This document shows positions 31,545 to 44,504 of a stretch of 64,000 nucleotides of DNA, one piece after another. Every line of letters starts with the position of its first letter. Position 1 is the stretch's first letter. Under the pieces are notes generated by a model. It made no database searches and was not told the DNA's origin. It saw only the letters and a list, made by a program, of their open reading frames with translations. The translations under genes and the position numbers were made by a program. Source of the DNA: a phage; sequence record PZ445489.1. One strand, given 5' to 3'.

Positions 31545-32356
31545 ATATTCATAAATTAGAGAACAGCGAGCCGATTACGCTGAACTTGTCTTAATGTAAG
31601 ATGCGTCGAGCACTAAGATTCGTTGAATAGAGTCGGTAGGTTAGTTGTAAAACTAGTACACAGGGGGCGGCAATCCCGGTTAGTGGCTAGAACGTGTAAA
31701 ATGAGGCGTCTGAAACCTCTCCCCTAAACTCTTCTCTAATTTATAAATAGTGGGGTGTGGAAATCACTTATGTAGTAACACTGCCGTCCTAGTATAATTG
31801 GTATTATCAAGCCGTAACTGGTGGAAGATATAGATTCGAATCCTACGGTCGGTAAGAACTGGATAACTGATGCTTTTAACGTAAAAGCTTCCGAGGTTAG
31901 TTGCGCACTGCCTAAACCACGCGGTAGTTGGTTCCAGGCTAACCAACCAGTCTGCTGAATAGTTTTATTACGATTTAACTATGTCCAGGCTAAAGAAGAA
32001 CTTTAGAAGGTATTCTAGGATAGTGAAGTTTTTTCTCCATATCGGAGTAGTTTTTCAAGCTATCCACAAAGTGGGAAATGCTGACATGAGAGATGTCACT
32101 AATGGTGCACAATAGCACAGGTAATTCGCGATAACTCCTGTTGAGTAGCAGCAAAAGGCGGGAAGTCATGACCCCAAGCCTAACCGAGTCCTCAATATAC
32201 CGCAGGACATAACCACTAAGTCACCCTGACTTAAACTGGAAAATAATAGACGTTACTGTATTTTGTCTTGAAATACTTAATGAGTGAGACTTATGACTCT
32301 CCCGGTATCGTCTGTATTTTTAAGAGTTTTTACGAGAGTTCTTAAAAATATTTAAA

Positions 32357-32431
32357 CGGGGTGTAGTCTAAGGGAGAGGCAGGAGTCTTCTAAATTCCTT
32401 TATGCAGGTTCGAATCCTGTCACCTCGGCCA
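32357..32431 (+). tRNA. tRNA-Arg (anticodon UCU)
   Basis: Acceptor CGGGGTG/CACCTCG, anticodon stem GGAGU/AUUCC loop CUUCUAA, T-arm GCAGG-TTCGAAT-CCTGT, encoded CCA. Confidence 0.7.
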
Positions 32432-33413: not shown

Positions 33414-33437
33414 TATCCGCATGTAACATCTGAAGTA

Positions 33438-33476
33438 AGCCCTGCGTTCCCTGGAGAGCGCAGGGCTTTTCTTTTA
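33438..33476 (+). terminator. rho-independent terminator
   Basis: AGCCCTGCG...CGCAGGGCT hairpin + TTTTCTTTT. Confidence 0.6.
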
Positions 33477-35365: not shown

Positions 35366-35394
35366 TTGCTTGAATGCTAAATTCTCTGTATAAT
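35366..35394 (+). promoter_or_regulatory. early-type promoter
   Basis: AAAAATTTGATTGCTT-17-TATAAT + ATATCTATAAATTTGAAAGAGG. Confidence 0.55.
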
Positions 35395-35424
35395 ATATCT
35401 ATAAATTTGAAAGAGGAACCAAAT

Positions 35425-35943
35425 ATGAATGTTGATGAGCTAACACAGCACCTCTTATCTAGAGGATTTGATACAGATAAATATCATTGCTGGTTAAGTC
35501 CGGAAGGATGGCTAACAGTCCCGTTGTATGACTTCTCTGGGATGTTGAGGGGCTATCAAACTTATAATCCTTCTGCTCCAAAAGGTCATGGTAAGTGCCC
35601 CTTTGAAGCTAAATACTTTACTTATTCTACTACCCAGTGTGTATGGGGACTAGAAACTCTCAATGGAGATGAAAAAGTAGTATTGATTGCTGAATCTGTA
35701 TTTAAGGCAGTTGCGTTACATAATGCTGGTTATCCAGCCCTAGCAATGTTGGGTTCTTCTCCAGGAAAAGCGTTATTAAAGCAACTGAAATTACTACCTT
35801 TTAAATTGGTAGCTGTCGGAGATAATGATCCTGCGGGTGAAAAATTTGCTAGAAAATTAAACGGCTTTGTTTCTCCCGTAGATGTGGATGAGATGTCTAC
35901 CGAAAACTTGAAAAATTTTCTTGCTATGAAGCTAAATTTCTAA
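35425..35943 (+). CDS. standalone Toprim-domain protein
   Basis: VVLIAESVFKAV (Toprim Glu) and LVAVGDNDPAGEKFA (DxD) motifs; ATG 35425 with GAAAGAGGAA RBS. Confidence 0.55.
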   Translation: MNVDELTQHLLSRGFDTDKYHCWLSPEGWLTVPLYDFSGMLRGYQTYNPSAPKGHGKCPFEAKYFTYSTTQCVWGLETLNGDEKVVLIAESVFKAVALHNAGYPALAMLGSSPGKALLKQLKLLPFKLVAVGDNDPAGEKFARKLNGFVSPVDVDEMSTENLKNFLAMKLNF

Positions 35944-35964
35944 TATAATATATCTTATAAATTC

Positions 35965-36053
35965 GGAAGAATAGCATAACGGTATTGCAGCAGATTGCTA
36001 ATCTGTCGGTTTGAAATATAGCCTTGTGGGTTCGATTCCCGCTTCTTCCGCCA
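35965..36053 (+). tRNA. tRNA-Ser (GCU), type II
   Basis: Acceptor GGAAGAA/TTCTTCC, anticodon loop TTGCTAA, long variable arm, T-arm GTGGG-TTCGATT-CCCGC, CCA. Confidence 0.75.
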
Positions 36054-36059
36054 AATTCT

Positions 36060-36137
36060 GGTTCTCAAGCTCATATGGTATGAGCACCCGGCTCATAACC
36101 GGAAGGTACGTAGGTTCGAATCCTCGGGGAGCCACCA
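36060..36137 (+). tRNA. tRNA-like, anticodon CAU (Met/Ile2), imperfect T stem
   Basis: Acceptor GGTTCTC/GGGAGCC (2 GU), D stem GCTC/GAGC, anticodon loop CTCATAA, T loop TTCGAAT with 2 mismatches in stem. Confidence 0.45.
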
Positions 36138-36156
36138 AATTAAATAGAGGTCACAA

Positions 36157-36345
36157 ATGGATCTATATATAGTTTATGTTGTGTTTATCCAAGATAGAGA
36201 ATACCCGGATGAATATAAAAAAGGATATAGGTTAGCCAGAGCTACCTCTGAAGCCCAAGCTATGGATAAAGTGGCAGATTATATGATTACGGTAGAAAAC
36301 ATACACTATATCGACTACCTTGAAGCCTCAAAAGTAATTGACTAA
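36157..36345 (+). CDS. hypothetical protein (62 aa)
   Basis: ORF. Confidence 0.4.
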   Translation: MDLYIVYVVFIQDREYPDEYKKGYRLARATSEAQAMDKVADYMITVENIHYIDYLEASKVID

Positions 36346-36354
36346 GGAGACTAT

Positions 36355-36540
36355 ATGTCTAAGTTTCAAGAACTCAAGCAAGAGCTAGAAGAATGTGCCT
36401 GCCCTGAGTGTAGAGGAATTGGTGAAAGTTCTGATGCAGAAGCAGGAGATACTTTTTGCAATATCTGGGTTTGCCCAAATTGCAATGGTACAGGTATTAA
36501 TCCTAACTGTGGTATTTCCCTAGATATTGAACGAGGATAA
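36355..36540 (+). CDS. small zinc-ribbon protein (61 aa)
   Basis: CACPEC...CPNCNG. Confidence 0.45.
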   Translation: MSKFQELKQELEECACPECRGIGESSDAEAGDTFCNIWVCPNCNGTGINPNCGISLDIERG

Positions 36541-36641
36541 TACCTGTAAAACTAAAAGATTATTATATTGGTTGGTTTGTGGGACTAGTAGTAGGATTTT
36601 CACTAGGCTATAATATGTATCAACTAATAAACTGATTACAC

Positions 36642-36718
36642 GGGGGTGTAATCGAATTGGCATAGGTACTGGACTTAAAATTCAGGTTTTGTGGGTTCGA
36701 ATCCCACCACCCCTACCA
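36642..36718 (+). tRNA. tRNA-like, anticodon UAA (Leu-type anticodon on short-variable-arm scaffold), atypical D arm
   Basis: Acceptor GGGGGTG/CACCCCT, anticodon stem CTGGA/TTCAG loop CTTAAAA, T-arm GTGGG-TTCGAAT-CCCAC, disc A, CCA. Confidence 0.5.
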
Positions 36719-36893
36719 AACTAAGGAAATAAGATGTATAGACATCCACCTCCGCCAACACGTCGTTCTAGAGAAGTTATCCTCATGGAATTGACTAAAA
36801 ACTTCAAGGCAACTCTTGAAGATAGAGATCTAGGTACAGATGAAGACGTTGATTTCATTTGTAAACTATTAAAAATGAAGCTGGAGAAACATC

Positions 36894-37100
36894 ATGGCTA
36901 ACCGTGAAATTACTATGCAACGAATCATGACTAAAGGCATGATAGCCGAGGCAGGTATTGAACAAGAAGTAAAAGGCTATTACGAACAGATTAAGACTAT
37001 TATAGACTCTGCTAAAAACACCGGAGAAAAAGAACACGGTGCAGCAATTATGGCTATAACTCTTATTAGCCTAGACTTAGCTGAAGAATCTGGAGTTTAG
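36894..37100 (+). CDS. hypothetical protein (68 aa)
   Basis: ORF. Confidence 0.4.
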   Translation: MANREITMQRIMTKGMIAEAGIEQEVKGYYEQIKTIIDSAKNTGEKEHGAAIMAITLISLDLAEESGV

Positions 37101-37130
37101 CTCCTCCAAACAGAATTTTTAAAAATGTAC

Positions 37131-37160
37131 TTGCCTTTTGCTTTAAATTTCTGATATAAT
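37131..37160 (+). promoter_or_regulatory. early-type promoter
   Basis: TTGCCT-18-TATAAT. Confidence 0.5.
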
Positions 37161-37190
37161 AGTTGTATAAATTGATGAAGGAGTTAACGA

Positions 37191-37466
37191 ATGCAAAATC
37201 GTGTTGTAGCAACTGGTATTGAAAGTGCAATCTGCAAATCCTGGGAAGACTGGGAAGGTGAGATTGAGTGGCTCTATCTCTATAACGTAGATCTTCTACC
37301 GGAGGTTAAAGCTAAATGTATTGAAGCTGGCATGGCTCCAGATGCAAAAGCTGATATTGATATTTCAATGTCTGAACTTAAAGGTCGTGTAATTACTGTT
37401 AGTGATGAGGGCGAAGAAGTTTTCGAACTTCCGTTCTCCTTAACTGTCACTCCTAAGTTCGACTAA
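37191..37466 (+). CDS. hypothetical protein (91 aa)
   Basis: ORF with promoter and GAAGGAG RBS. Confidence 0.45.
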   Translation: MQNRVVATGIESAICKSWEDWEGEIEWLYLYNVDLLPEVKAKCIEAGMAPDAKADIDISMSELKGRVITVSDEGEEVFELPFSLTVTPKFD

Positions 37467-37503
37467 CTAATACAGCACTGAGCAAGTTCTTTAAAATTTG
37501 ACT

Positions 37504-37531
37504 TGCTCAGTGCCTTAAAACTTGGTATAAT
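37504..37531 (+). promoter_or_regulatory. early-type promoter driving tRNA sub-cluster
   Basis: TTGCTC-16-TATAAT. Confidence 0.5.
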
Positions 37532-37596
37532 ATTTACCTAATTTGGAAACATATTTAAAAGTGTTTAAATGAGAATTTTTGAATACTTCTAAATAT

Positions 37597-37687
37597 GTTG
37601 GATTAGTATCGTAGAGGTAGCGAAGCAGACTGTAAATCTGCCGACTCGGAAGGGTCTCGGGTGGTTCGACTCCATCATCCAACACCA
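37597..37687 (+). tRNA. tRNA-Tyr (GUA), type II
   Basis: Acceptor GTTGGAT/ATCCAAC, anticodon stem GCAGA/TCTGC loop CTGTAAA, long variable arm, T-arm GGTGG-TTCGACT-CCATC, CCA. Confidence 0.75.
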
Positions 37688-37694
37688 AATTTAA

Positions 37695-37771
37695 GTCCTG
37701 TTAGACAAACTGGTAAAGTCACTACCCTTTCAAGGTAGGATTTGCGGGTTCGATCCCCGCACAGGACGCCA
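37695..37771 (+). tRNA. tRNA-Glu (UUC)
   Basis: Acceptor GTCCTGT/ACAGGAC, anticodon stem CTACC/GGTAG loop CTTTCAA, T-arm GCGGG-TTCGATC-CCCGC, CCA. Confidence 0.75.
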
Positions 37772-37779
37772 ATTTCTGC

Positions 37780-37856
37780 ATTCCTAGAGTGTTACTGGAC
37801 AGCATGTCGGTCTCCAAAACCGTACGGTCTAGGTTCGAGTCCTAGTAGGTTTGCCA
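37780..37856 (+). tRNA. tRNA-like, anticodon CCA (Trp), acceptor stem with mismatches
   Basis: Anticodon loop CTCCAAA, T-arm CTAGG-TTCGAGT-CCTAG, 3' GCCA; acceptor pairing imperfect. Confidence 0.5.
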
Positions 37857-37862
37857 AAATTT

Positions 37863-37937
37863 GCACCTTTAGCTGAGATGGATTAGCGCTTGCCTGAAGA
37901 GCTTGAGAGGTTCGTTCGATACGAACAGGGTGCACCA
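37863..37937 (+). tRNA. tRNA-like, anticodon uncertain (possibly GAA, Phe)
   Basis: Acceptor GCACCTT/AGGGTGC, T-arm GTTCG-TTCGATA-CGAAC, CCA; anticodon stem poorly paired. Confidence 0.45.
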
Positions 37938-37954
37938 AATTGAAGGAGCTGCTG

Positions 37955-38227
37955 ATGCATCCTGAAAACTTCTTTATTTACTGCGCTGATAAGTCGCTAA
38001 AACGTAGAATTAACAAAGTCTACCATTATCGTGCTAGTCAACAGCCTTATGTATATGCTTTTGACGGTGATCACATTCCATTAGAACAATTATCTTGTGA
38101 TTACATGATATTAAAGAACTTTGACGAGACGAAGATCTCAAGCGTTCACAATCGGCAGAATCCATTAACGTGGAAATATAAGAAGAAAAAGAAAGGCATC
38201 AAATTCTTAAAAAATATAGTTGCTTAG
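37955..38227 (+). CDS. hypothetical protein (90 aa)
   Basis: ATG 37955 after AAGGAG. Confidence 0.45.
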   Translation: MHPENFFIYCADKSLKRRINKVYHYRASQQPYVYAFDGDHIPLEQLSCDYMILKNFDETKISSVHNRQNPLTWKYKKKKKGIKFLKNIVA

Positions 38228-38248
38228 TTTCCAAAAGTTCTGTATAAT
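38220..38248 (+). promoter_or_regulatory. early-type promoter
   Basis: TTGCTT-17-TATAAT. Confidence 0.55.
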
Positions 38249-38296
38249 AATTACATAAATTGAACTGGAGAAGCAACATGACAGAACAAGATAAAC

Positions 38297-38372
38297 CGAC
38301 CGTTGGCTGAATGGCTTAGGCGAAGGATTGCAAATCCTTTTTATGTGAGTTCAAATCTCATGCGGTCGTCCA
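38297..38372 (+). tRNA. tRNA-Cys (GCA)
   Basis: Acceptor CGACCGT/GCGGTCG, anticodon stem AAGGA/TCCTT loop TTGCAAA, T-arm GTGAG-TTCAAAT-CTCAT, CCA. Confidence 0.7.
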
Positions 38373-38379
38373 AATTTTA

Positions 38380-38462
38380 GGGTCGTTAGCCAAGCGGTTT
38401 GGCGGTGGACTGTTAATCCATGTCGAAAGACAACGTAGGTTCGAATCCTACACGGCCCGCCA
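38380..38462 (+). tRNA. tRNA-Asn (GUU) with extended variable region
   Basis: Acceptor GGGTCGT/ACGGCCC, anticodon loop CTGTTAA, T-arm GTAGG-TTCGAAT-CCTAC, CCA. Confidence 0.6.
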
Positions 38463-38564
38463 AATTCTGTGTAGAGTTAAGTAAACCGGTAGCCAACCAG
38501 CTATCATTGCTGACATCGAATTCAGCCACAGATACCATTTTCATTAATAACTGAGGAAACAAGC

Positions 38565-38750
38565 ATGTCCAAGAATGTAATTGCGCAGCTAGAAGTTCAT
38601 CGTGATAGCACTATCAACAATATTGAAGTTGAAAAGAAATACATCGAAGAACTTAAACATGATATACTAGTGAGTCTCAACCGTCTTAATGTACGAAAAG
38701 AGTTTCTTAAAGAACTTAATGCAGCTATTGAAAAACTCAAAGCTGAGTAA
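38565..38750 (+). CDS. hypothetical protein (61 aa)
   Basis: ORF with GAGGAAACAAGC RBS. Confidence 0.4.
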   Translation: MSKNVIAQLEVHRDSTINNIEVEKKYIEELKHDILVSLNRLNVRKEFLKELNAAIEKLKAE

Positions 38751-38759
38751 ATGAATTAT

Positions 38760-38836
38760 GCGACCGGGGCTGGCTTGGTAATGGTACTCCCCTGTCACGG
38801 GAGAGAATGTGGGTTCAAATCCCATCGGTCGCGCCA
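38760..38836 (+). tRNA. tRNA-Asp (GUC)
   Basis: Acceptor GCGACCG/CGGTCGC, anticodon stem CTCCC/GGGAG loop CTGTCAC, T-arm GTGGG-TTCAAAT-CCCAT, CCA. Confidence 0.8.
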
Positions 38837-38862
38837 AATTAATTTAGTATGAGAAATATGCT

Positions 38863-39210
38863 ATGATTAATGCTAAAGAAGAATTGTTACTTGCCCTAAA
38901 GAATACTAATTCTGAAGTTAAGTGTATTAAGATAGAATTCGGTTATTATGGAGACAAAGAAGTTTGGGTATTACCCGTAGGTTATACAGAAAAAGATATT
39001 GAAGATTTTCTAAATAATCTAGACTTTAAATATGATTCTGGTTTCGGTGGACAATTGCTTTATGGTAACGTATGGTTTACTGATGGAACTTGGTTAGAAC
39101 GTGGTGAATATGATGGTTCTGAATGGTGGGAATATAAGACTACACCAGCAATTCCAGAGGAATGCCGAACAATTAATGGTGAAGTAGATCGTACTTTACT
39201 ATTAAATTAA
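38863..39210 (+). CDS. hypothetical protein (115 aa)
   Basis: ORF. Confidence 0.5.
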   Translation: MINAKEELLLALKNTNSEVKCIKIEFGYYGDKEVWVLPVGYTEKDIEDFLNNLDFKYDSGFGGQLLYGNVWFTDGTWLERGEYDGSEWWEYKTTPAIPEECRTINGEVDRTLLLN

Positions 39211-39450
39211 CAAAATCTCAGTGCAGAACACGGAGCTAGCAATTCGGAAGTGCTGACTCATGATAAGCTGCCTATGTACTTGCGAAGCGGTCGTGTCCAA
39301 GACTCGGACTCTTGCACTGAAAACAATCAAACATTCTAGCGTGGTTGATGGGGAAACCAGCTTGGCTAGGGCAGAAGCTCGTTCGATTCGAGTGAAAGAA
39401 TGGTTCTCGTAAGTCCGCACAAGTGATAGCAGGTTCGAGTCCTGTCTAGA

Positions 39451-39642
39451 ATGACATATTCTGGAGGTTTTGTGAATTACAAAGAATTAGATCTTTTAGC
39501 AAATAAATTCACAGAGCTATCTGATAACGTTGTATCAAAGGACTCCAACATAGATAATTTTATTACTGAATATCGTGATGGTATAATCTCTAAACAAGAG
39601 TTGTTAGATAAAACGTATAAATATTTAAAGGGGTTCAGCTAA
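39451..39642 (+). CDS. hypothetical protein (63 aa)
   Basis: ORF. Confidence 0.4.
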   Translation: MTYSGGFVNYKELDLLANKFTELSDNVVSKDSNIDNFITEYRDGIISKQELLDKTYKYLKGFS

Positions 39643-39953
39643 ACGGTTAAGCACTGTCCTACTTCGGACAGAGGGAGTAACACGTAGTCTCCCAAACTCC
39701 CCCAAATTTAGATTTCTGCTTCCTAGAGAACGGACTTCTGAATAAACAAGGCGATGAAGTTTCCGGCCGGTTCTAGTCGCTAAAGTCCCTCTAACGGGGC
39801 GTAAGTAAATGAAAGTTTACTTATTATGTAGGTTCCGATAGATCGGCGGGTCTATTCTGGCATTTAAGAGAGGTCTCGCAAACTTCTTTGTCAGCCGTGG
39901 GGTTGGTAGCCTCCAGGTGGCCTACACAATAAGTAAATTTATTAAAAATTCAT

Positions 39954-39982
39954 TTGCTATTCTGCTATATTATCTGTATAAT
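39954..39982 (+). promoter_or_regulatory. early-type promoter
   Basis: TTGCTA-17-TATAAT. Confidence 0.55.
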
Positions 39983-40014
39983 ATATTTTATAAAGTGAAG
40001 AGAAGGAAAGCAAA

Positions 40015-40173
40015 ATGAAACACAAGATAGCTCAAGTTTTTATGACATTATGGTGTATGCCAATAGCTATAACAGCATTTAATCTAGATACTTTTACTAT
40101 AGAAGAAAAATGTATCGGATTAGTTAGCGGCTTTAGTATGCTGGGCTTATCTTTGTTGTGGTTGAAGAAATAA
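40015..40173 (+). CDS. small hydrophobic protein (52 aa, not in ORF track)
   Basis: ATG after GAGAAGGAAAG RBS and promoter; two hydrophobic segments. Confidence 0.35.
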   Translation: MKHKIAQVFMTLWCMPIAITAFNLDTFTIEEKCIGLVSGFSMLGLSLLWLKK

Positions 40174-40177
40174 TATT

Positions 40178-40255
40178 CTCCGTGTAGCTCAGTTTGGCCA
40201 GAGCGTTTCGTTTGGGGCGATAGGGTCGGGGGTTCAAATCCTCCCACGGAGACCA
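40178..40255 (+). tRNA. tRNA-Pro (UGG)
   Basis: Acceptor CTCCGTG/CACGGAG, D stem GCTC/GAGC, anticodon loop TTTGGGG, T-arm GGGGG-TTCAAAT-CCTCC, CCA. Confidence 0.7.
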
Positions 40256-40261
40256 AACAAT

Positions 40262-40339
40262 TGCGGGTTAGATCTCTGGTAGAGATCGCTAGTCTCATAA
40301 GCTAGAAAGAGGTAGGTTCGATTCCTGCACCCGCTTCCA
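40262..40339 (+). tRNA. tRNA with anticodon CAU (Met/fMet/Ile2)
   Basis: Anticodon stem CTAGT/GCTAG loop CTCATAA, T-arm GTAGG-TTCGATT-CCTGC, CCA. Confidence 0.6.
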
Positions 40340-40359
40340 CTTTAATAGAGGATTTCGAA

Positions 40360-40527
40360 ATGAAAGTATTTCGATTAGTAGTAAGTGACAAACGTTTAGG
40401 TAATAATACCTCAAGATCCTTACTTGCACATTATGGTAAAAATTGGGATGAAGTAATGGCAGAGTTTAATACTAATCACCCTTACTTGAAAGTTCACTCT
40501 ATTAAAGAGGTATATAATGGTTACTAA
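40360..40527 (+). CDS. small hypothetical protein (55 aa, not in ORF track)
   Basis: ATG 40360 between tRNAs. Confidence 0.3.
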   Translation: MKVFRLVVSDKRLGNNTSRSLLAHYGKNWDEVMAEFNTNHPYLKVHSIKEVYNGY

Positions 40528-40528
40528 T

Positions 40529-40606
40529 AGATCGCTAGCTCAACTGGATAAGAGTAGCGGACCTTTAATCCGTCAGTTCTGGGTTCGAATCCCAGGCGAT
40601 CTACCA
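40529..40606 (+). tRNA. tRNA-Lys (UUU), C at position 33
   Basis: Acceptor AGATCGC/GCGATCT, anticodon stem GCGGA/TCCGT loop CCTTTAA, T-arm CTGGG-TTCGAAT-CCCAG, CCA. Confidence 0.6.
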
Positions 40607-40610
40607 AATT

Positions 40611-40684
40611 GCTCGGTTAGTTTAATGGGAGAACCCCGTCTTTACACGGCGGTTGTGATAGTTCGATTCTATCACCGAGTACCA
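40611..40684 (+). tRNA. tRNA-like with non-canonical anticodon loop (identity unclear)
   Basis: Acceptor GCTCGGT/ACCGAGT, T-arm GATAG-TTCGATT-CTATC, CCA; anticodon region CCGT-CTTTAC-ACGG (6-nt loop). Confidence 0.45.
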
Positions 40685-40703
40685 ATTAACTCAAAATAAG
40701 GAA

Positions 40704-41072
40704 TTGCAAATGCAATTATCAAACAAGATTCAAGGTTATTTCGGTCATGTGACAATGGAGTTCGCATTGCAGCATGGCTGGGATATGGAAAAAGATCTAT
40801 CGGAATTTTATGAGTCTCATAAAGAGATTGATCTTAGTTCTGTCTATTTGGGATTATCTACTGGTCAAGAACTTACAGAATATGATGTATTCAAGGCAAG
40901 TCAAGGTGAGATAACACCTAGTTTTGCCGAGTTCTGGCTAGGAATTACCTTGAAGGATAATGCACCAGATGAAGGTGTGGTTATGCAAAGTATGCACTCT
41001 GGAAGCTCTGATTACCTTTACGTTCGTGATGTAAAGGAACTACAGGAAATCGCTAAAAATGTACTTGCTTAA
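40704..41072 (+). CDS. hypothetical protein (122 aa)
   Basis: ORF with RBS AAGGAATTG. Confidence 0.5.
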   Translation: MQMQLSNKIQGYFGHVTMEFALQHGWDMEKDLSEFYESHKEIDLSSVYLGLSTGQELTEYDVFKASQGEITPSFAEFWLGITLKDNAPDEGVVMQSMHSGSSDYLYVRDVKELQEIAKNVLA

Positions 41073-41093
41073 TGCTTAATTTCTTGTTATAAT
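41065..41093 (+). promoter_or_regulatory. early-type promoter
   Basis: TTGCTT-17-TATAAT. Confidence 0.55.
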
Positions 41094-41432
41094 ATTTATA
41101 TAAATTGATGCGAAAATAGCTGCCTAGATACCAGGTGTATGACGTCTACACTAGCAGAGCTACCGAAAAAGAGATCCTCAGGATAAACGTCGTAGCAAAA
41201 TTAGTCTGGTATCCATCAATTTAGTTCACTAAGGTATTAGCTCGACCTAGGACTGGCTGCCAAAAAGCACGATCCCTACAATTCGGGAGAAGTTCTAGAT
41301 TAGTCCACTAGATTCAGCGGCAACTGAATAGTGTATCGGGTTTGCGAGATGACGCAGTTCCTTCCGCTCGAAGCGAAGGTGCTGTAGTTACGCCGAGCTA
41401 ATAGCCTTAGTAAACTTACAGGGGTTAACGCA

Positions 41433-41819
41433 GTGTGTACAAAAACATGTAGAGCCTGTGGGAATGAATATCCGTTAACAACCGAATATTTTTATTCGAA
41501 TGGATTTACTCCTAATGGCACAAAGAAGTGGAAGCCAACATGTAAAGCATGTGAAAAAGCTGAACGAGTAGCTGGACATGAAGAATTAATTAAAGAAGTA
41601 TTTCCTGTATTAGAATGTAGTATTTGTGGATATAATAGGTGTAAACAAGCCCTAGATTTCCACCGTACTAATCCAGAAGAAAAGGAATACTCCATTGCAA
41701 GGTTTAGAACTTCTCGTAGAAACAGAGAAGTAGTAATAGCAGAACTTAAAAAGTGCGTACTATTATGCTCTAACTGCCATAGAGAAGTACATGCTGGATT
41801 AATAAATTTGGGCGAATAG
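41433..41819 (+). CDS. HNH endonuclease
   Basis: C-terminal CVLLCSNCHREVHAG HNH motif plus CxxC pairs; GTG start per ORF track; 3' end overlaps tRNA-Ala. Confidence 0.65.
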   Translation: MCTKTCRACGNEYPLTTEYFYSNGFTPNGTKKWKPTCKACEKAERVAGHEELIKEVFPVLECSICGYNRCKQALDFHRTNPEEKEYSIARFRTSRRNREVVIAELKKCVLLCSNCHREVHAGLINLGE

Positions 41820-41884
41820 TGTCAGCGGGAGCACACCAGACTTGCAATCTGGTAGGGAGGGTTCGAGTCCCTCTTTGTCCACCA
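41810..41884 (+). tRNA. tRNA-Ala (UGC)
   Basis: Acceptor GGGCGAA/TTTGTCC (2 GU), D stem GTGT/ACAC, anticodon stem CCAGA/TCTGG loop CTTGCAA, T-arm GAGGG-TTCGAGT-CCCTC, CCA. Confidence 0.65.
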
Positions 41885-41889
41885 AATAC

Positions 41890-41966
41890 GCGTGATTGAT
41901 GGAATTGGCATACATACCGTCCTTAGAAGTCGGGTTTTGAGGGTTCGAATCCCTTGTCACGCACCA
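41890..41966 (+). tRNA. tRNA-like, anticodon UAG (Leu-type) on short-variable-arm scaffold; paralog of 36642 element
   Basis: Acceptor GCGTGAT/GTCACGC, loop CTTAGAA, T-arm GAGGG-TTCGAAT-CCCTT, CCA; shares GAATTGGCATA D-region with 36642 tRNA. Confidence 0.5.
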
Positions 41967-42078
41967 AATTTGATGGTCAGAGTAAATTAAACCTACTATC
42001 TCGGTTGAGCTGTTTTAATGGGTTCGAATCCCAGCGAGGCGTAACTGCCTGGTGTGATAGAGGCATCATCTTATTATT

Positions 42079-42169
42079 GGAAGAGCAAATCGAATTGGCG
42101 ACGAAAACCGCTTGGAAAGTGGCTGACTGGTAAAACGGCTTGAGAGTTCAAATCTCTCCTCTTCCGCCA
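42079..42169 (+). tRNA. type II tRNA, probably Ser (GGA)
   Basis: Acceptor GGAAGAG/CTCTTCC, T-arm GAGAG-TTCAAAT-CTCTC, CCA, 91 nt; anticodon loop assignment TTGGAAA tentative. Confidence 0.55.
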
Positions 42170-42175
42170 AATAAT

Positions 42176-42265
42176 AGAAGATAGGACGTAGTGGTACGTA
42201 ACTGGTCTTGAAAACCAGCCCGCTGTAGCGATACGGTGATGGTTCGACTCCATTATCTTCTGCCA
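42176..42265 (+). tRNA. tRNA-Ser (UGA), type II
   Basis: Acceptor AGAAGAT/ATCTTCT, anticodon stem CTGGT/ACCAG loop CTTGAAA, long variable arm, T-arm GATGG-TTCGACT-CCATT, CCA. Confidence 0.75.
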
Positions 42266-42285
42266 ATTAGCTATAAGGAAACCTT

Positions 42286-42459
42286 ATGAGCAAAACAGTT
42301 ACTGTAACAATGAAGGATGGCAAAAAATTTAAAGCATGTCTTCATGAAACAGATAAGGGATGGATGGCTTACTTGCCACACCTAGATTCCACCGGGTATG
42401 GAATGACCCAACGTGAAGCTATTGTTGATGCTTTAAATGAGGCTTCTGCTGGTTTATAA
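42286..42459 (+). CDS. small hypothetical protein (57 aa, not in ORF track)
   Basis: ATG after AAGGAAACC RBS. Confidence 0.35.
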   Translation: MSKTVTVTMKDGKKFKACLHETDKGWMAYLPHLDSTGYGMTQREAIVDALNEASAGL

Positions 42460-42828
42460 AAAATTCTTGAAGTATGCCGGAATCGGTAGACGGGGCTGCC
42501 TAAAAGGTTTATAGGGAACATCCACTCCCTGCAACATACCTCATAAAGCGGCTGAGATAAATGGTCTATCTCGTGAAGGTTCAAGTCCTTCTGCTTCTTG
42601 ATACATCTATGGCTCAAAGTGTAACGGTGCTATTTGATGCTCTTGGTAAGACTTCCCCGACATGCGTTCGGGAGTAAGCTGCTAAGACTAGAGTAGAAGA
42701 GTTTCTGAGAGCCGCCACAATTGAAAATTCGTACTCGTCTTGAGCTGCGTGCAATAGGAGATAACTTGATTAGTATTCTAGAACATGCTAATTGAGGAAG
42801 GTTTCGCTAACCCTGCGAGTTTTCAATT

Positions 42829-42905
42829 GTGGCTATATCATAATTGGTTAATGATCCTGATTGTGAATCAGGCCTATGTGGATTCGAATTCCACTAGCCA
42901 CCCCA
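42829..42905 (+). tRNA. tRNA-His (GUG)
   Basis: Acceptor GTGGCTA/TAGCCAC, anticodon stem CCTGA/TCAGG loop TTGTGAA, T-arm GTGGA-TTCGAAT-TCCAC, CCA. Confidence 0.75.
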
Positions 42906-42930
42906 AATTAACTTAAATAGGAAATAAAAT

Positions 42931-43137
42931 ATGGCTGATTTCTGCAAACAATGCTCCATTGATATGTGGGGCAGAGATACTGGTGATCTTTCTGGTTTGA
43001 TTACAGAAGCTGAGGTCAAAGAAGGTTATGGTGTAGTTGTGGTTTGCGAAGGGTGCGGAGTTATTCGAGTAGATCATGAAGGCAAACGTTTAGAAGATCC
43101 AAAAAGTATTAAGAAGAAGGTTAGCCAAGTCGGTTAA
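42931..43137 (+). CDS. hypothetical Cys-rich protein (68 aa); 3' end overlaps tRNA-Gln
   Basis: CKQC...CEGCG; RBS AGGAAATAAAAT. Confidence 0.4.
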   Translation: MADFCKQCSIDMWGRDTGDLSGLITEAEVKEGYGVVVVCEGCGVIRVDHEGKRLEDPKSIKKKVSQVG

Positions 43138-43190
43138 GGCTGGGGTCTCTGAAACCCCGATCAGTGGTTCGAACCCACTACCTTCTGCCA
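43115..43190 (+). tRNA. tRNA-Gln (CUG)
   Basis: Acceptor AGAAGGT/ACCTTCT, anticodon stem GGGGT/ACCCC loop CTCTGAA, T-arm AGTGG-TTCGAAC-CCACT, CCA. Confidence 0.7.
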
Positions 43191-43196
43191 AACAGT

Positions 43197-43274
43197 TGGG
43201 GATTAGCTTAGCCTGGTCTAAAGCTTCGGCCTTTGAAGTCGAGATCATTGGTTCAAATCCAATATCCCCTGCCA
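43197..43274 (+). tRNA. tRNA-Gln (UUG)
   Basis: D stem GCTT/AAGC, anticodon stem TCGGC/GTCGA loop CTTTGAA, T-arm ATTGG-TTCAAAT-CCAAT, CCA. Confidence 0.65.
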
Positions 43275-43282
43275 AACAATAA

Positions 43283-43357
43283 GCGGTTAAGCACACGGGT
43301 TGTGTCGCAGGCCTTCCAAGCCTCGCTGAGTAGGGTTCGATTCCCTCTAGCCGCTCC
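43283..43357 (+). tRNA. tRNA-Gly (UCC)
   Basis: Acceptor GCGGTTA/TAGCCGC, anticodon loop CTTCCAA, T-arm TAGGG-TTCGATT-CCCTC, CCA. Confidence 0.6.
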
Positions 43358-43374
43358 AACTTTAAGGGAACATT

Positions 43375-43596
43375 ATGCACGTTTTTGAGTTTCGTAATAA
43401 AAGTACTGATAAACGAGTTATTGTTATTGGGGAAACATACCGAGCATACGAACAAACTGACGGTTCTGTTATCCTGAATGATGAGAAAGGAGGTTTTAGC
43501 TTTTATCCCAAAGAAACTTACGAAGAATTTCGTACAAAGTTTCTTCTACCAGACTGGCTAGAAGTAGCGCAGCAACGAGAACCCGAAGATGGCTGA
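43375..43596 (+). CDS. hypothetical protein (73 aa)
   Basis: ORF. Confidence 0.45.
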   Translation: MHVFEFRNKSTDKRVIVIGETYRAYEQTDGSVILNDEKGGFSFYPKETYEEFRTKFLLPDWLEVAQQREPEDG

Positions 43597-43753
43597 CAAC
43601 CTAAAAGTCAAGATCGATAAACAAAAGAAACGTGTAGAAGTAGAGATTGGTGAAGAACGTGTAGCCTTCACCTTTGAATTTCTACAACAAATGGCAATGA
43701 CAGTTATGACTGATAAGTCTCCTGTTATTGAAAAAGAAATCCCGTTGAAATAA
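43589..43753 (+). CDS. small hypothetical protein (54 aa, not in ORF track)
   Basis: ATG overlapping upstream stop. Confidence 0.3.
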   Translation: MADNLKVKIDKQKKRVEVEIGEERVAFTFEFLQQMAMTVMTDKSPVIEKEIPLK

Positions 43754-43763
43754 CGGGATCATC

Positions 43764-43838
43764 GCTCCTAAAGCATTGCTGGCGATGCAGTTGCCTTGTA
43801 AGCATCTGAACCGGGTTCGATTCCTGGTGGGAGCACCA
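43764..43838 (+). tRNA. tRNA-Thr (UGU)
   Basis: Acceptor GCTCCTA/TGGGAGC, D stem GCAT/ATGC, anticodon loop CTTGTAA, T-arm CCGGG-TTCGATT-CCTGG, CCA. Confidence 0.65.
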
Positions 43839-43863
43839 AATTTAAAAATTCATTTGCCTTCTC

Positions 43864-43892
43864 TCTTATTTCTTGTTATAATATCTATATAA
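43864..43892 (+). promoter_or_regulatory. early-type promoter
   Basis: TTGCCT-17-TATAAT. Confidence 0.55.
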
Positions 43893-43912
43893 ATTAATGA
43901 GAGGGAAACCAA

Positions 43913-44203
43913 ATGAAACGTTATCTTTCTGTAGTATTCCAAACTGGTGGTCAAAGATATACCTATGAATTTCCATCTTCTTGGAAAATCAAAGAAGGTG
44001 ATCAAGTAGTAGTGTTAACACCGCGTGAAGGATATAAAGTAGTAACGGTTAAACAAGTATTCCCAAAAGATCATGAACCAGCTAAAGGCATTCGCTATAA
44101 GATGATTCATGGTGTGGTTCGTCAAGTACCACGAACTGAGGTAGAAGTAGATAAGACTGGAGAAGCTAAATTCCATTATACTTCTTACTTAGACAGTGTA
44201 TGA
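43913..44203 (+). CDS. hypothetical protein (96 aa)
   Basis: ORF with GAGAGGGAAACC RBS. Confidence 0.5.
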   Translation: MKRYLSVVFQTGGQRYTYEFPSSWKIKEGDQVVVLTPREGYKVVTVKQVFPKDHEPAKGIRYKMIHGVVRQVPRTEVEVDKTGEAKFHYTSYLDSV

Positions 44204-44218
44204 TGTAAATATTCTAAT

Positions 44219-44295
44219 ACTTCGGTAGCTTAGCGATCTAAAGCACTCGGCTGATAACCGAGAGATCGGGGGTTTAAATCCCTCCCGGAGTACCA
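44219..44295 (+). tRNA. tRNA-Ile (GAU) with variant T loop TTTAAAT
   Basis: Acceptor ACTTCGG/CCGGAGT, anticodon stem CTCGG/CCGAG loop CTGATAA, T-arm GGGGG-TTTAAAT-CCCTC, CCA. Confidence 0.65.
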
Positions 44296-44391
44296 AATCT
44301 AGGAATTAAGACTATGCGTCCAGGAAAGTTTAAAAAAGCTAATTGGTCTAAAGAGTATAAAGAATACTTACTTAGTCTAGTAAAACATAAC

Positions 44392-44467
44392 AGTTAGTTG
44401 GCAGAGTGGTTATGCACCTCCTTCATACGGAGCGACTACAGTGGTTCAAATCCACTACTAACTACCA
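44392..44467 (+). tRNA. tRNA with anticodon CAU (Met/fMet/Ile2), third CAU species
   Basis: Acceptor AGTTAGT/ACTAACT, anticodon loop TTCATAC, T-arm AGTGG-TTCAAAT-CCACT, CCA. Confidence 0.65.
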
Positions 44468-44504
44468 TTAAAAGAGCTAGAGATAGCTAAATATAGGAGC
44501 AATT

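What the first reader, a model, noticed from the sequence alone, without database searches (positions are those of the whole stretch)
35965..44467. Large tRNA cluster (~26 genes) with conserved AAAT trailer and several non-canonical members
tRNAs for Ser (x3), Met/Ile-CAU (x3), Tyr, Glu, Trp, Cys, Asn, Asp, Pro, Lys, Ala, His, Gln (x2), Gly, Thr, Ile and Arg were hand-folded. Nearly all end in encoded CCA followed by AAAT(T), suggesting a conserved 3' processing signal. Several have atypical features: two mismatches in a T stem (36060), a 6-nt anticodon loop (40611), C33 (40529), T loop TTTAAAT (44219), and poorly paired acceptor or anticodon stems (37780, 37863). Some may be pseudo-tRNAs or have non-translational roles.
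Basis: partly seen in the sequence, partly recalled or inferred. Interest (0 to 1): 0.55.

Follow-up and report, generated by a model that had tools for sequence, protein, structure and literature searches.

The report
T5-type phage tRNA gene cluster
This is the long-known block of about 25 transfer-RNA genes that T5-like phages of E. coli and Salmonella carry to keep making protein when host tRNAs are scarce or are cut by defence nucleases; the finding is real but already described.

Summary
The window comes from a T5-like phage (Tequintavirus). It is 98.9% identical to Escherichia phage vB_EcoD-Elw over this stretch. Positions 35965-44467 are the classical T5 "tRNA gene region".

I find 25 tRNA genes in the interval, and a 26th (Arg-UCU) lies outside it at 32357. 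Together they cover all 20 amino acids. ARAGORN finds 22 of the 25. Rfam adds Ile2(CAU). Ser2(GGA) and Gly1(UCC) are recovered only by identity to the curated T5 and phage 5 records. Seven known stable or tRNA-like RNAs, seven early promoters, small ORFs and one HNH endonuclease gene lie between the tRNAs.

All 26 genes encode CCA. It is strongly non-random and more uniform than in 22 E. coli tRNAs. It matches the RNase E core motif RN|WUU.

Five of the six "atypical" claims hold; the 6-nt loop in Val does not. The oddities are conserved, and for Trp, Gly1 and Phe I showed compensatory changes around them. GenBank notes report suppressor activity for sequences identical to the window's Trp, Gly1 and Ile1 (Ile2 97% identical). 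They are therefore working variants, not pseudogenes.

Published work shows that T5-type tRNAs rescue infection from PARIS, retron-Eco7 and PrrC. Verdict: already known.

The parts
32357..32431 (+). tRNA-Arg(UCU). Lies outside the reported interval; the 26th tRNA of the window.
   Evidence: ARAGORN; Rfam 49.3 bits; 100% identical to T5 tRNA-Arg
35965..36053 (+). tRNA-Ser3(GCU), type II
   Evidence: (57.9 bits)
36060..36137 (+). tRNA-Ile2(CAU). T stem has G.G and U.C mismatches. Missed by ARAGORN.
   Evidence: Rfam 40.3 bits; 100% identical to phage 5 tRNAI2; the T5 record note on its 97.4%-identical Ile2 reports suppressor activity; MFE fold is a cloverleaf
36642..36718 (+). tRNA-Leu2(UAA)
37597..37687 (+). 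tRNA-Tyr(GUA), type II. An allele different from T5's.
   Evidence: (32.6 bits)
37695..37771 (+). tRNA-Glu(UUC)
37780..37856 (+). tRNA-Trp(CCA) with conserved mismatches at 2.71, 3.70 and 27.43
   Evidence: Rfam 36.3 bits; covariation; at least 99% identical in 239 phage records; phage 5 suppressor note
37863..37937 (+). tRNA-Phe(GAA) with U.U at 28.42 and 29.41, and G37
   Evidence: the cloverleaf register is supported by Acinetobacter and Karamvirus phage homologues
38297..38372 (+). tRNA-Cys(GCA)
38380..38462 (+). tRNA-Asn(GUU), the 83-nt allele with a 12-nt variable loop. Differs from the T5 allele.
38465..38537 (+). RNA3, a tRNA-like RNA ending in ACCA; function unknown
   Evidence: 100% identical to T5 and phage 5 rna3; fold z = -3.0 with a terminal helix
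38760..38836 (+). tRNA-Asp(GUC)
39332..39456 (+). RNA2, a tRNA-like stable RNA with a T-arm-like hairpin CAGGTTCGAGTCCTG
39826..39928 (+). RNAIV, a stable RNA of unknown function
40178..40255 (+). tRNA-Pro(UGG) with C1-G72. The allele is only 73% identical to T5's.
40262..40339 (+). Initiator-type tRNA-fMet(CAU) with a U1.U72 mismatch
   Evidence: 100% identical to T5
40529..40606 (+). tRNA-Lys(UUU), C33 allele. Anticodon loop is CCUUUAA, and positions 36-41 read UAAUCC.
   Evidence: the allele occurs in 88 phage records; three Lys allele families
40611..40684 (+). tRNA-Val(UAC) with a normal 7-nt anticodon loop
   Evidence: Rfam 57.8 bits
41235..41406 (+). RNA2H, a stable RNA of unknown function
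   Evidence: 97-99% identical to T5 and phage 5 rna2H
41433..41819 (+). HNH homing-endonuclease ORF (GTG start). Its end overlaps the start of tRNA-Ala.
   Evidence: ORF; phrog_2255 E 4.6e-31; no Pfam hit
41810..41884 (+). tRNA-Ala(UGC)
41890..41966 (+). tRNA-Leu1(UAG)
42079..42169 (+). tRNA-Ser2(GGA), type II with an aberrant D arm. Missed by both ARAGORN and Rfam.
   Evidence: 100% identical to phage 5 tRNAS2; the MFE fold has acceptor, anticodon, variable and T arms
42176..42265 (+). tRNA-Ser1(UGA), type II
   Evidence: (32.2 bits)
42466..42610 (+). RNA1, a tRNA-like stable RNA
   Evidence: sub-threshold RF00005 hit of 25.2 bits; fold
42611..42717 (+). RNAI, a stable RNA ending in GCCA
42722..42827 (+). 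RNAIII, a stable RNA with a 12-bp terminal helix; abuts tRNA-His
   Evidence: fold z = -2.9
42828..42905 (+). tRNA-His(GUG). The curated 78-nt form carries U at position -1, not G.
43115..43190 (+). tRNA-Gln2(CUG)
43197..43274 (+). tRNA-Gln1(UUG)
43283..43358 (+). tRNA-Gly1(UCC), non-canonical, with conserved mismatches at 27.43-equivalent and 49.65. Missed by ARAGORN and by the Rfam tRNA model.
   Evidence: 100% identical to T5 tRNAG1; T5 note 'effective amber suppressor'; covariation; cloverleaf MFE
43764..43838 (+). tRNA-Thr(UGU). Positions 36-41 read UAAGCA; E. coli has UAAUCA.
44219..44295 (+). tRNA-Ile1(GAU) with T loop UUUAAAU (U56)
   Evidence: the highest Rfam score, 65.5 bits; 100% identical to T5
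44392..44467 (+). Elongator tRNA-Met(CAU)
35902..35976 (+). Early promoter P15b
   Evidence: 100% identical to the phage 5 feature; TTGCTA-17-TATAAT
37112..37186 (+). Early promoter P15c
37481..37555 (+). Early promoter P14a, upstream of Tyr-Glu-Trp-Phe
38200..38274 (+). Early promoter P14b
39934..40009 (+). Early promoter P13a
41055..41119 (+). Early promoter P13b
43842..43907 (+). Early promoter P11
31788..32356 (+). Counterpart of T5 'RNAX', a stable RNA of unknown function immediately upstream of tRNA-Arg
   Evidence: 91% identical to T5 rnaX over 31788-32241; weak tRNA-like hit at 31783-31854, 22.3 bits

Best explanation
The interval is the tRNA gene region ("tRNA-rich region") of a T5-like phage. 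It holds 25 tRNA genes, and Arg-UCU lies 3.5 kb upstream. Together they cover all 20 amino acids. All are on one strand and interleaved with seven small stable or tRNA-like RNAs, about 20 small early ORFs and one HNH homing-endonuclease gene.

Shown by homology to curated records: the region is transcribed from seven strong sigma-70 early promoters, as polycistronic RNAs.

Inferred from the sequence and from the E. coli pathway: host RNase P makes the 5' ends. The stereotyped trailer CCA|A-AUU offers an RNase E site that cuts about 1 nt after the encoded CCA. Exonucleases then trim to CCA, so no CCA addition is needed.

Function, from published experiments on T5 and SP15:
- The phage tRNAs feed translation of an A/T-rich genome.
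- They also replace host tRNAs destroyed by defence nucleases: PARIS AriB (Lys, Thr, Asn), retron-Eco7 PtuAB (Tyr) and PrrC (Lys).
- For T5's tRNA-Lys, resistance to AriB cleavage has been shown directly. For Tyr the published explanation is overproduction from a strong promoter.

Inferred for this window: the non-canonical features are fixed, selected variants of working tRNAs, and some probably reduce recognition by such nucleases. These features are C33 in Lys, the anticodon-stem mismatches in Phe, Trp, Gly1 and Thr, U56 in Ile1 and the odd D arms.

Inferred from the allele pattern and the homing-endonuclease literature: homing endonucleases and recombination shuffle alternative alleles of each tRNA among T5-like phages.
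For: Identity:
- 607 phage records match the interval, all within or near T5-like phages. The best is vB_EcoD-Elw, at 98.9% identity over 96% of the query.
- Gene order and boundaries are the same as in the curated T5 and phage 5 records.

tRNA genes.

Trailer:
- Enrichment within the window.
- The same trailer appears in 56 allele families from 19 related loci.
- It is more uniform than in 22 E. coli K-12 tRNAs: A at +1 in 24/26 against 8/22, P = 5e-5; AA in 19/26 against 1/22, P = 1e-6.
- A full RN|WUU core placed 1-2 nt after CCA is present in 16/26. The motif is from PMC5222698, and RNase E cutting 1-3 nt after CCA is from PMC2190699.

Evidence that the odd tRNAs work:
- Covariation in Trp: 10 of 21 pairs have compensatory changes while the mismatches are kept.
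- Covariation in Gly1 and in Phe.
- Two compensatory acceptor-stem changes within the C33 Lys allele family.
- Suppressor notes in the GenBank records.

Defence role:
- PMC11464382 and PMC12409363: T5 tRNA-Lys is not cleaved by AriB, and T5 Lys, Thr and Asn together rescue infection.
- PMC11555353: tRNA-Tyr against retron-Eco7, and SP15 tRNA-Lys against PrrC170.
- PMC10264068: the general hypothesis.
- At the AriB site, the window's Lys reads U36AAUCC41 and its Thr reads U36AAGCA41. E. coli has U36AAUCA41 in both.

Codon usage: ORFs in the window have GC3 of 0.33 and use A-ending codons heavily, for example CTA 21% of Leu, AGA 17% of Arg and GTA 41% of Val. The U34 tRNAs read these codons.
Against: - There are no expression, end-mapping or aminoacylation data for this phage. 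The processing route and the role of the trailer are inferred.
- The window's tRNA-Asn has the same U36AAUCC41 as the E. coli tRNA-Asn that AriB cleaves. Its tRNA-Lys carries only the weaker of T5's two protective substitutions: C41 but not A39. Resistance to PARIS therefore cannot be assumed for this phage.
- The effect of C33 on any nuclease, or on decoding, is untested.
- GenBank notes say several T5 tRNAs did not become suppressors: Phe, T5's own Trp and Ser2 alleles, Val, Thr, Asn and Asp. This may reflect synthetase identity rules, but it leaves function formally unproven for Ser2 and Phe.
- tRNA-Trp does not reach a cloverleaf as its minimum-energy fold (z = +0.3).
Confidence: 0.9

Rival explanations
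1. Codon compensation only. The tRNAs exist solely to read the A/U-ending codons that the A/T-rich phage uses more than its host does. The sequence oddities are neutral drift tolerated in a short-lived infection.
For: GC3 of 0.33 and heavy use of CTA, AGA, TTA, GGA, GTA and CCA in window ORFs, matched by U34 anticodons. This is the classical view cited in PMC10644984 and PMC11555353.
Against: Experiments show defence rescue by T5-type Lys, Thr, Asn and Tyr (PMC11464382, PMC12409363, PMC11555353). The set also includes tRNAs for codons that are abundant in the host (Met, Trp, His, Asp). The mismatches are conserved while neighbouring pairs covary, which is not drift. The two roles are not mutually exclusive.
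Confidence: 0.25
2. Several flagged members (36060, 37780, 37863, 40529, 44219) are pseudo-tRNAs or RNAs with non-translational roles such as decoys, primers or regulators.
For: Low or missing covariance-model scores: Trp 36.3 bits, Ile2 40.3 bits, and Gly1 and Ser2 below threshold. Trp does not fold as a cloverleaf on its own. T5 notes report no suppressor activity for Phe and for T5's Trp and Ser2 alleles. PMC12409363 raises the possibility that overexpressed viral tRNAs act as competitive inhibitors of AriB.
Against: All have intact anticodon loops, an encoded CCA and identity elements. For Gly1 these are G1-C72, C2-G71, G3-C70 and U73, read from the sequence. Compensatory changes are seen. 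Sequences identical to the window's Trp, Gly1 and Ile1, and T5's 97.4%-identical Ile2, are annotated as convertible to amber suppressors. Ile1 has the highest Rfam score of all, 65.5 bits. The C33 Lys allele is kept in 88 records.
Confidence: 0.1
3. The CCA-AAU(U) trailer has no processing role. It reflects A/T-rich intergenic DNA, common descent of duplicated cassettes, or the RNase P leader of the next gene.
For: The genome is 39% G+C. Eleven of the 25 genes in the interval are followed within 4-8 nt by another tRNA, so trailer and leader coincide.
Against: AAT follows only 3% of the other CCA triplets in the same window but 54% of tRNA ends. The trailer is equally present before ORFs and before tRNAs. 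It is kept across 56 unrelated allele families. The stable RNAs of the same region do not share it.
Confidence: 0.12
4. The cluster is a bacterial tRNA array or a prophage remnant rather than part of a virulent phage.
For: Long tRNA arrays exist in bacteria (PMC8421152).
Against: There is near-identity and synteny with complete T5-like phage genomes across the whole interval and its flanks.
Confidence: 0.01

Closest known systems
Escherichia phage T5 tRNA gene region (AY543070, about 28.0-37.3 kb, plus tRNA-Arg and RNAX at 40.8 kb)
   Same: Same gene order, promoters P15b to P11 and stable RNAs (RNA1, 2, 3, I, III, IV, 2H). Met, Ile1, Gly1, His, Ala, fMet, Asp, Cys and Arg are 100% identical.
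   Different: Different alleles of Lys (75% identity; T5 has U33 and A39), Pro (73%), Tyr, Ser2, Asn and Leu1, and T5's Trp has no match. T5 lacks Leu2(UAA) and carries hegA, hegC and hegD where the window has none. The window has an HNH gene before Ala instead.
Salmonella phage 5 tRNA gene region (AJ604531; curated by the depositors, compared by them with BF23)
   Same: Ser3, Ile2, Leu2, Glu, Trp, Phe, Asn, RNA3, fMet, Leu1, Ser2, His, Gly1 and Ile1 are 100% identical. The small ORFs trn2.x are the same.
   Different: Different Lys (80% identity, U33), Pro, Ala, Thr and Gln alleles. Phage 5 has hegB before Pro, has an Asp with anticodon AUC, and has no Val gene annotated.
Escherichia phage vB_EcoD-Elw (OR621298), the nearest complete genome
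   Same: 98.9% identity over 96% of the interval. It carries the identical C33 tRNA-Lys.
   Different: Elw has an extra tRNA-Lys(CUU), the T5-type Asn allele and an insertion between Cys and Asn. Its annotation lacks Ser2, Gly1, all the stable RNAs and the HNH ORF.
Phage T4 tRNA gene cluster with the SegB homing endonuclease (PMC2330249)
   Same: A virulent coliphage cluster of tRNA genes with small stable RNAs of unknown function and a homing endonuclease that drives its inheritance. The stable-RNA point is from my own knowledge of T4.
   Different: T4 has only 8 tRNAs, a GIY-YIG rather than an HNH nuclease, and no sequence relationship. As I recall, some T4 tRNAs lack an encoded CCA, whereas all 26 here encode it.
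Phage tRNAs with anticodon-loop changes that evade host tRNases (van den Berg et al. 2023, PMC10264068)
   Same: The concept is the same: phage tRNAs differ from host tRNAs at nuclease recognition or cleavage sites.
   Different: That study is mainly on mycobacteriophages and is predictive. A text search of it for U33 or position 33 found nothing. For T5-type tRNAs there is direct experimental evidence, but only for the T5 and SP15 alleles.

Membership tests
T5-like (Demerecviridae, Tequintavirus/Epseptimavirus) tRNA gene region | Nucleotide similarity and synteny with the tRNA region of T5 and its relatives | tested here: met
   607 records; best 98.9%; feature-by-feature BLAST
T5-like (Demerecviridae, Tequintavirus/Epseptimavirus) tRNA gene region | More than 20 co-oriented tRNA genes covering nearly all amino acids | tested here: met
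   25 in the interval plus Arg, covering 20 amino acids
T5-like (Demerecviridae, Tequintavirus/Epseptimavirus) tRNA gene region | Interspersed stable or tRNA-like RNAs (RNA1, 2, 3, I, III, IV, 2H) and early promoters P15 to P11 | tested here: met
   85-100% identity to the curated features
T5-like (Demerecviridae, Tequintavirus/Epseptimavirus) tRNA gene region | Homing endonuclease genes embedded among the tRNA genes | tested here: met
   One HNH ORF at 41433-41819, phrog_2255 E 4.6e-31; hegA-D of T5 are absent
Canonical bacterial-type tRNA (Rfam RF00005) | Score at or above the gathering threshold of the tRNA covariance model | tested here: met
   Met for 23 of the 25 genes in the interval, and for Arg. 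Not met for Ser2 (no hit) or Gly1 (30.9 bits, to the tRNA-Sec model only).
Canonical bacterial-type tRNA (Rfam RF00005) | U33 and a 7-nt anticodon loop | tested here: met
   The loop is 7 nt in all genes, including Val at 40611. U33 is present in all except Lys(UUU), which has C33.
Canonical bacterial-type tRNA (Rfam RF00005) | T loop TΨC with C56 | tested here: not met
   Not met in Ile1 only, where the T loop is UUUAAAU with U56. The other genes have TTCRA.
Canonical bacterial-type tRNA (Rfam RF00005) | Fully paired acceptor and anticodon stems | tested here: not met
   Not met in Trp, Phe, Gly1, Thr, Pro, Leu1 or fMet. The mismatches are conserved in relatives.
Functional (aminoacylated, decoding) tRNA | Charged by the cognate synthetase and used on the ribosome | not testable with these tools
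   Only indirect evidence: suppressor notes in GenBank for sequences identical to Trp, Gly1 and Ile1 and for T5's 97.4%-identical Ile2. The window's Lys(C33), Ser2 and Phe alleles carry no positive suppressor note.
Nuclease-evading phage tRNA (PARIS/AriB, PrrC, retron-Eco7 PtuAB) | Sequence differs from the host tRNA at the mapped recognition or cleavage site | tested here: inconclusive
   Lys reads UAAUCC where the host has UAAUCA, and also has C33. Thr reads UAAGCA where the host has UAAUCA. Asn reads UAAUCC, identical to the host Asn site quoted in PMC12409363.
Nuclease-evading phage tRNA (PARIS/AriB, PrrC, retron-Eco7 PtuAB) | Resists cleavage and rescues infection | not testable with these tools
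   Shown only for the T5 and SP15 alleles (PMC11464382, PMC12409363, PMC11555353)
RNase E tRNA 3'-processing site | Single-stranded RN|WUU core 1-3 nt downstream of CCA | tested here: met
   Full core in 16/26 trailers, with the cut 1 nt after CCA in 14 of them. The E. coli sample has 8/22.
RNase E tRNA 3'-processing site | RNase E-dependent cleavage in vivo | not testable with these tools
   No transcript data are available

The most novel reading that the evidence does not exclude
The uniform CCA|AAUU trailer could be a phage-specific processing code: an RNase E "U+2 ruler" site set so that a single cut 1 nt after every encoded CCA frees all tRNAs quickly and without CCA repair. The recurrent C33 tRNA-Lys allele, together with the conserved stem mismatches in Trp, Phe and Gly1, could be a second, uncharacterised way of escaping anticodon-loop nucleases such as PrrC, which cuts next to position 33. 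That would differ from T5's characterised A39/C41 solution against PARIS. The seven tRNA-like stable RNAs could be decoys or competitive inhibitors of tRNA-targeting effectors.
Probability: 0.2. Interest if true: 0.5.

Novelty: already known. Interest (0 to 1): 0.2.

Why it matters
As a discovery it does not matter much. The T5 tRNA region was mapped and sequenced decades ago, is curated in GenBank, and has recently been tied by experiment to escape from PARIS, retron-Eco7 and PrrC.

Four practical points remain useful:
- Standard finders miss three real genes here. ARAGORN misses Ile2, Ser2 and Gly1, and Rfam misses Ser2 and Gly1. Most deposited T5-like genomes leave Gly1 unannotated.
- T5-like phages carry alternative alleles of the defence-relevant tRNAs (Lys, Asn, Thr, Tyr, Pro). 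This window has the C33 Lys allele and an Asn whose AriB site equals the host's. Defence-escape results obtained with T5 therefore cannot be transferred to every relative.
- The stereotyped trailer gives a simple, testable handle on how a phage gets 25 tRNAs processed by host enzymes.
- Seven stable RNAs in the region still have no known function.

Tried and rejected
- I did not accept ARAGORN alone as the census. It misses Ile2, Ser2 and Gly1, so I used Rfam and the curated records as well.
- I checked the 6-nt anticodon loop at 40611. It arises only if CCGU is paired with ACGG. The cloverleaf register gives 7 nt with anticodon UAC, so I rejected the claim.
- For Phe, the RNAfold minimum-energy structure uses a shifted anticodon stem with loop GCCUGAA. 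I rejected this because the Acinetobacter and Karamvirus phage homologues covary in the ARAGORN register and break the shifted one.
- I searched for further tRNA remnants with blastn-short of every tRNA against the window. This found only isolated T-arm-like pieces at 39429-39446 (inside RNA2) and 42019-42034. The similarity I saw by eye between 39700-39735 and the Glu-Trp junction did not reach significance.
- An Rfam scan at E up to 5 gave no family for any of the stable RNAs, apart from sub-threshold tRNA hits for RNA1 and the start of RNAX.
- Pfam gave nothing for the HNH ORF, but PHROGs did.
- The consensus promoter scan was not enriched over shuffles (27 found against 33.8 expected). I therefore took the promoters from homology to the curated features.
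- I made no protein-database, structure-prediction or metagenome searches, because the question was settled at the nucleotide level.

Full report
WHAT IS THERE

ARAGORN on the whole window returns 23 tRNA genes, all on the + strand. Twenty-two lie between 35965 and 44467, and the first and last coordinates are exactly those of the finding. One, Arg(UCU), lies at 32357-32431. Rfam's tRNA model at its gathering threshold gives 24 hits: the same set plus 36060-36134, which has a CAU anticodon.

A megablast of 35900-44500 against 50,697 phage records hits 607 records, essentially all T5-like phages of Salmonella, Escherichia, Klebsiella and relatives. The best is Escherichia phage vB_EcoD-Elw, at 98.9% identity over 96% of the query. 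The window is therefore a T5-like phage (Demerecviridae, Tequintavirus), and the interval is its classical tRNA gene region.

Two records carry detailed curation by the depositors: T5 itself (AY543070) and the "Bacteriophage 5 tRNA gene region" (AJ604531). I blasted each of their annotated features onto the window. This gave the following.
- 25 tRNA genes in the interval. In order: Ser3-GCU, Ile2-CAU, Leu2-UAA, Tyr, Glu, Trp, Phe, Cys, Asn, Asp, Pro, fMet, Lys-UUU, Val, Ala, Leu1-UAG, Ser2-GGA, Ser1-UGA, His, Gln2-CUG, Gln1-UUG, Gly1-UCC, Thr, Ile1-GAU, Met.
- With Arg-UCU outside the interval, the total is 26 genes covering all 20 amino acids.
- Seven stable or tRNA-like RNAs "with unknown functions": RNA3, RNA2, RNAIV, RNA2H, RNA1, RNAI and RNAIII.
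- Seven early promoters: P15b, P15c, P14a, P14b, P13a, P13b and P11.
- The family of small trn2.x ORFs.

Ser2 (42079-42169) and Gly1 (43283-43358) are 100% identical to curated genes but are invisible to ARAGORN. They are also missed by the Rfam tRNA model even at E up to 5: Gly1 scores only 30.9 bits, against the tRNA-Sec model, and Ser2 gives nothing. Both fold as cloverleaves without constraints. The genes it left unnamed are Leu x2, Phe and Val, and its Arg lies outside the stated interval.

THE TRAILER

All 26 genes end in an encoded CCA. The following bases are A (24/26), A (19/26), U (20/26) and U (17/26). Fourteen trailers begin AAT and eleven begin AATT. After the other 833 CCA triplets on this strand of the window, AAT follows 3.0% and AATT follows 1.2% (binomial P about 1e-15). 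The motif is CCA+AAU(U).

The trailer is present both before ORFs and before closely following tRNAs. It is kept in 56 different allele families of tRNAs collected from 19 related loci. It is not shared by the stable RNAs.

For comparison I took 22 E. coli K-12 tRNAs from four operons. They have U-rich trailers but no fixed A: A at +1 in 8/22 and AA in 1/22 (Fisher P = 5e-5 and 1e-6).

CCA|A-AUU is a complete match to the RNase E core "RN|WUU" with its U+2 ruler (PMC5222698). It is positioned to cut 1 nt after CCA. Sixteen of the 26 trailers have a full core within 2 nt of CCA, against 8 of 22 in the host sample. The accepted E. coli pathway begins with RNase E cuts 1-3 nt after the encoded CCA (PMC2190699). 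It is best described as a stereotyped version of the ordinary host signal, and the cleavage itself is inferred, not shown.

THE ATYPICAL MEMBERS

Confirmed:
- C33 in Lys(UUU): the loop is CCUUUAA.
- G.G and U.C at the base of the T stem of Ile2.
- T loop UUUAAAU (U56) in Ile1.
- U.U at 2.71 and 3.70, plus 27.43, in Trp.
- U.U at 28.42 and 29.41 in Phe.

Not confirmed: a 6-nt loop in Val. The cloverleaf register gives UUUACAC.

These features are not signs of decay.

Trp. The sequence is at least 99% identical in 239 phage records. In an alignment with Klebsiella, Pectobacterium and Serratia phage homologues, 10 of 21 pairs show compensatory double changes. Positions 2.71 and 3.70 stay unpaired in 4 of 5 sequences, and 27.43 stays unpaired in all 5.

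Gly1. It has homologues in Klebsiella Vequintavirinae and in Vibrio phages. Five pairs covary, and its two mismatches are kept in 4 of 4 sequences. Most of the GenBank records sampled have nothing annotated at this position.

Phe. Homologues in an Acinetobacter phage and a T4-like Karamvirus restore or flip pairs 28.42, 29.41 and 30-40 in the ARAGORN register. This supports the GAA anticodon and rules out the shifted minimum-energy fold.

Depositor notes. The depositors' notes state that the anticodon-to-amber versions of Trp (phage 5; identical to the window), Gly1 and Ile1 (T5; identical) and Ile2 (T5; 97% identical) act as suppressors. No such positive evidence exists for the window's Ser2, Phe or Lys alleles.

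ALLELES

Running ARAGORN over 19 related loci shows that many positions in the cluster are occupied by quite different alleles in different T5-like phages. Lys(UUU) has three families:
- the T5 type (U33; U36AAACC41);
- a second U33 type, as in phage 5;
- the C33 type of this window.

The C33 type occurs in 88 phage records. It includes two variants that differ by two compensatory acceptor-stem changes: A1-U72 to G1-C72, and C5-G68 to U5-A68.

The window also differs from T5 in Pro (73% identity), Tyr, Asn (an 83-nt allele with a 12-nt variable loop), Ser2, Leu1 and Trp. An HNH endonuclease ORF sits at 41433-41819, overlapping the start of tRNA-Ala. T5 carries other HNH genes at other junctions. 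This fits endonuclease-driven exchange of cassettes (PMC10448857; compare T4 SegB, PMC2330249).

FUNCTION

Published experiments, not my analysis, show three things.
- T5's tRNA-Lys is not cut by the PARIS effector AriB. T5 Lys, Thr and Asn together neutralise PARIS (PMC11464382, PMC12409363).
- The tRNA-Tyr of T5 and SP15, expressed from a strong promoter in this region, rescues infection from retron-Eco7 PtuAB (PMC11555353).
- The tRNA-Lys of SP15 rescues from PrrC170 (PMC11555353).

I read the window against the mapped AriB site, which is U36AAUC|A41 in E. coli Lys and Thr (confirmed).
- The window's Thr has U36AAGCA41, like T5.
- Its Lys has U36AAUCC41. This is only the weaker "Mut2" change and not the decisive A39.
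- Its Asn has U36AAUCC41, the same as the cleavable E. coli Asn.

Whether this phage escapes PARIS therefore cannot be inferred from T5. What C33 does is also open. It lies next to the PrrC cut site; that last statement is from my own knowledge.

The older codon-usage explanation also fits. ORFs of at least 150 aa in the window have GC3 of 0.33 and use CTA, AGA, TTA, GGA, GTA and CCA heavily, and these are read by the U34 tRNAs encoded here. The statement that these codons are rarer in E. coli rests on my own knowledge.

VERDICT

The object is the already known and recently much-studied T5 tRNA-rich region. Nothing in this copy is new at the sequence level, because every tRNA allele recurs in deposited genomes.

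What remains open:
- the function of the seven stable RNAs;
- the role of the uniform trailer;
- the properties of the C33 Lys allele.

Noticed in passing
window 31788-32431: tRNA-Arg(UCU) sits alone 3.5 kb upstream of the cluster. It is directly preceded by the counterpart of T5's 719-nt 'RNAX, stable RNA with unknown functions'. The start of that stretch gives a weak tRNA-like Rfam hit (31783-31854, 22.3 bits), and a TTGCTA-17-TATAAT promoter-like site lies at 31516-31544.
   Followed up: partly
window 41433-41819: A 128-aa ORF with a GTG start matches PHROG HNH endonucleases (E 4.6e-31) but no Pfam family. It covers only positions 53-174 of the 211-position profile, so it may be truncated. 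Its end overlaps tRNA-Ala. The equivalent stretch is unannotated in the nearest genome, vB_EcoD-Elw.
   Followed up: partly
window 41967-42078: The 112-nt spacer between Leu1 and Ser2 contains an isolated T-arm-like element, GGGTTCGAATCCCAG, identical to the T arm of Lys and Leu2. It has no convincing fold (z = -0.2). In T5 this junction is occupied by the HNH gene hegC. It may be a tRNA remnant or an endonuclease target.
   Followed up: partly
window 42827-42829: The base before G1 of tRNA-His is T, not the G(-1) that bacterial tRNA-His genes normally encode. The curated records annotate a 78-nt tRNA-His that starts with this U and abuts RNAIII.
   Followed up: no
window 39644-39825: An unannotated 180-nt stretch between ORF trn2.10.1 and RNAIV. 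By eye it contains CCCCCAAATTT (like a tRNA 3' end plus trailer) followed by ATTTCTGC-TTCCTAGAG, which resembles the Glu-Trp junction at 37772-37790. It was not significant in blastn-short. T5 lacks this stretch.
   Followed up: partly
window 35374-35943: The ORF immediately upstream of the cluster (T5.076 / trn2.1) has a Toprim domain (Pfam Toprim_2, E 2.6e-5). Its 3' end overlaps promoter P15b.
   Followed up: no
L002 (vB_EcoD-Elw) 2609-3904 versus window 38297-38860: Although 98.9% identical overall, Elw has a roughly 500-bp insertion between Cys and Asn, carries the T5-type Asn allele instead of the 83-nt allele, and has an extra tRNA-Lys(CUU) after Asp. This shows cassette-level mosaicism between very close relatives.
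   Followed up: partly
L028 (Vibrio phage D28), L029 (Klebsiella phage KpS11): Homologues of the non-canonical tRNA-Gly1(UCC) occur outside Demerecviridae, in Vequintavirinae and in hundreds of Vibrio phage records. The T arm is invariant. Most of the records sampled have nothing annotated there.
   Followed up: partly
window 33437-33468: A strong intrinsic-terminator-like hairpin (13-bp stem followed by a T run) lies between tRNA-Arg and the cluster. By position it may correspond to the bidirectional terminator annotated in T5.
   Followed up: no
L001 (phage 5) 3718-3794: The deposited phage 5 tRNA-Asp has anticodon ATC rather than GTC, a single-base difference from the window. The record nevertheless labels the codon recognised as GAU.
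   Followed up: no
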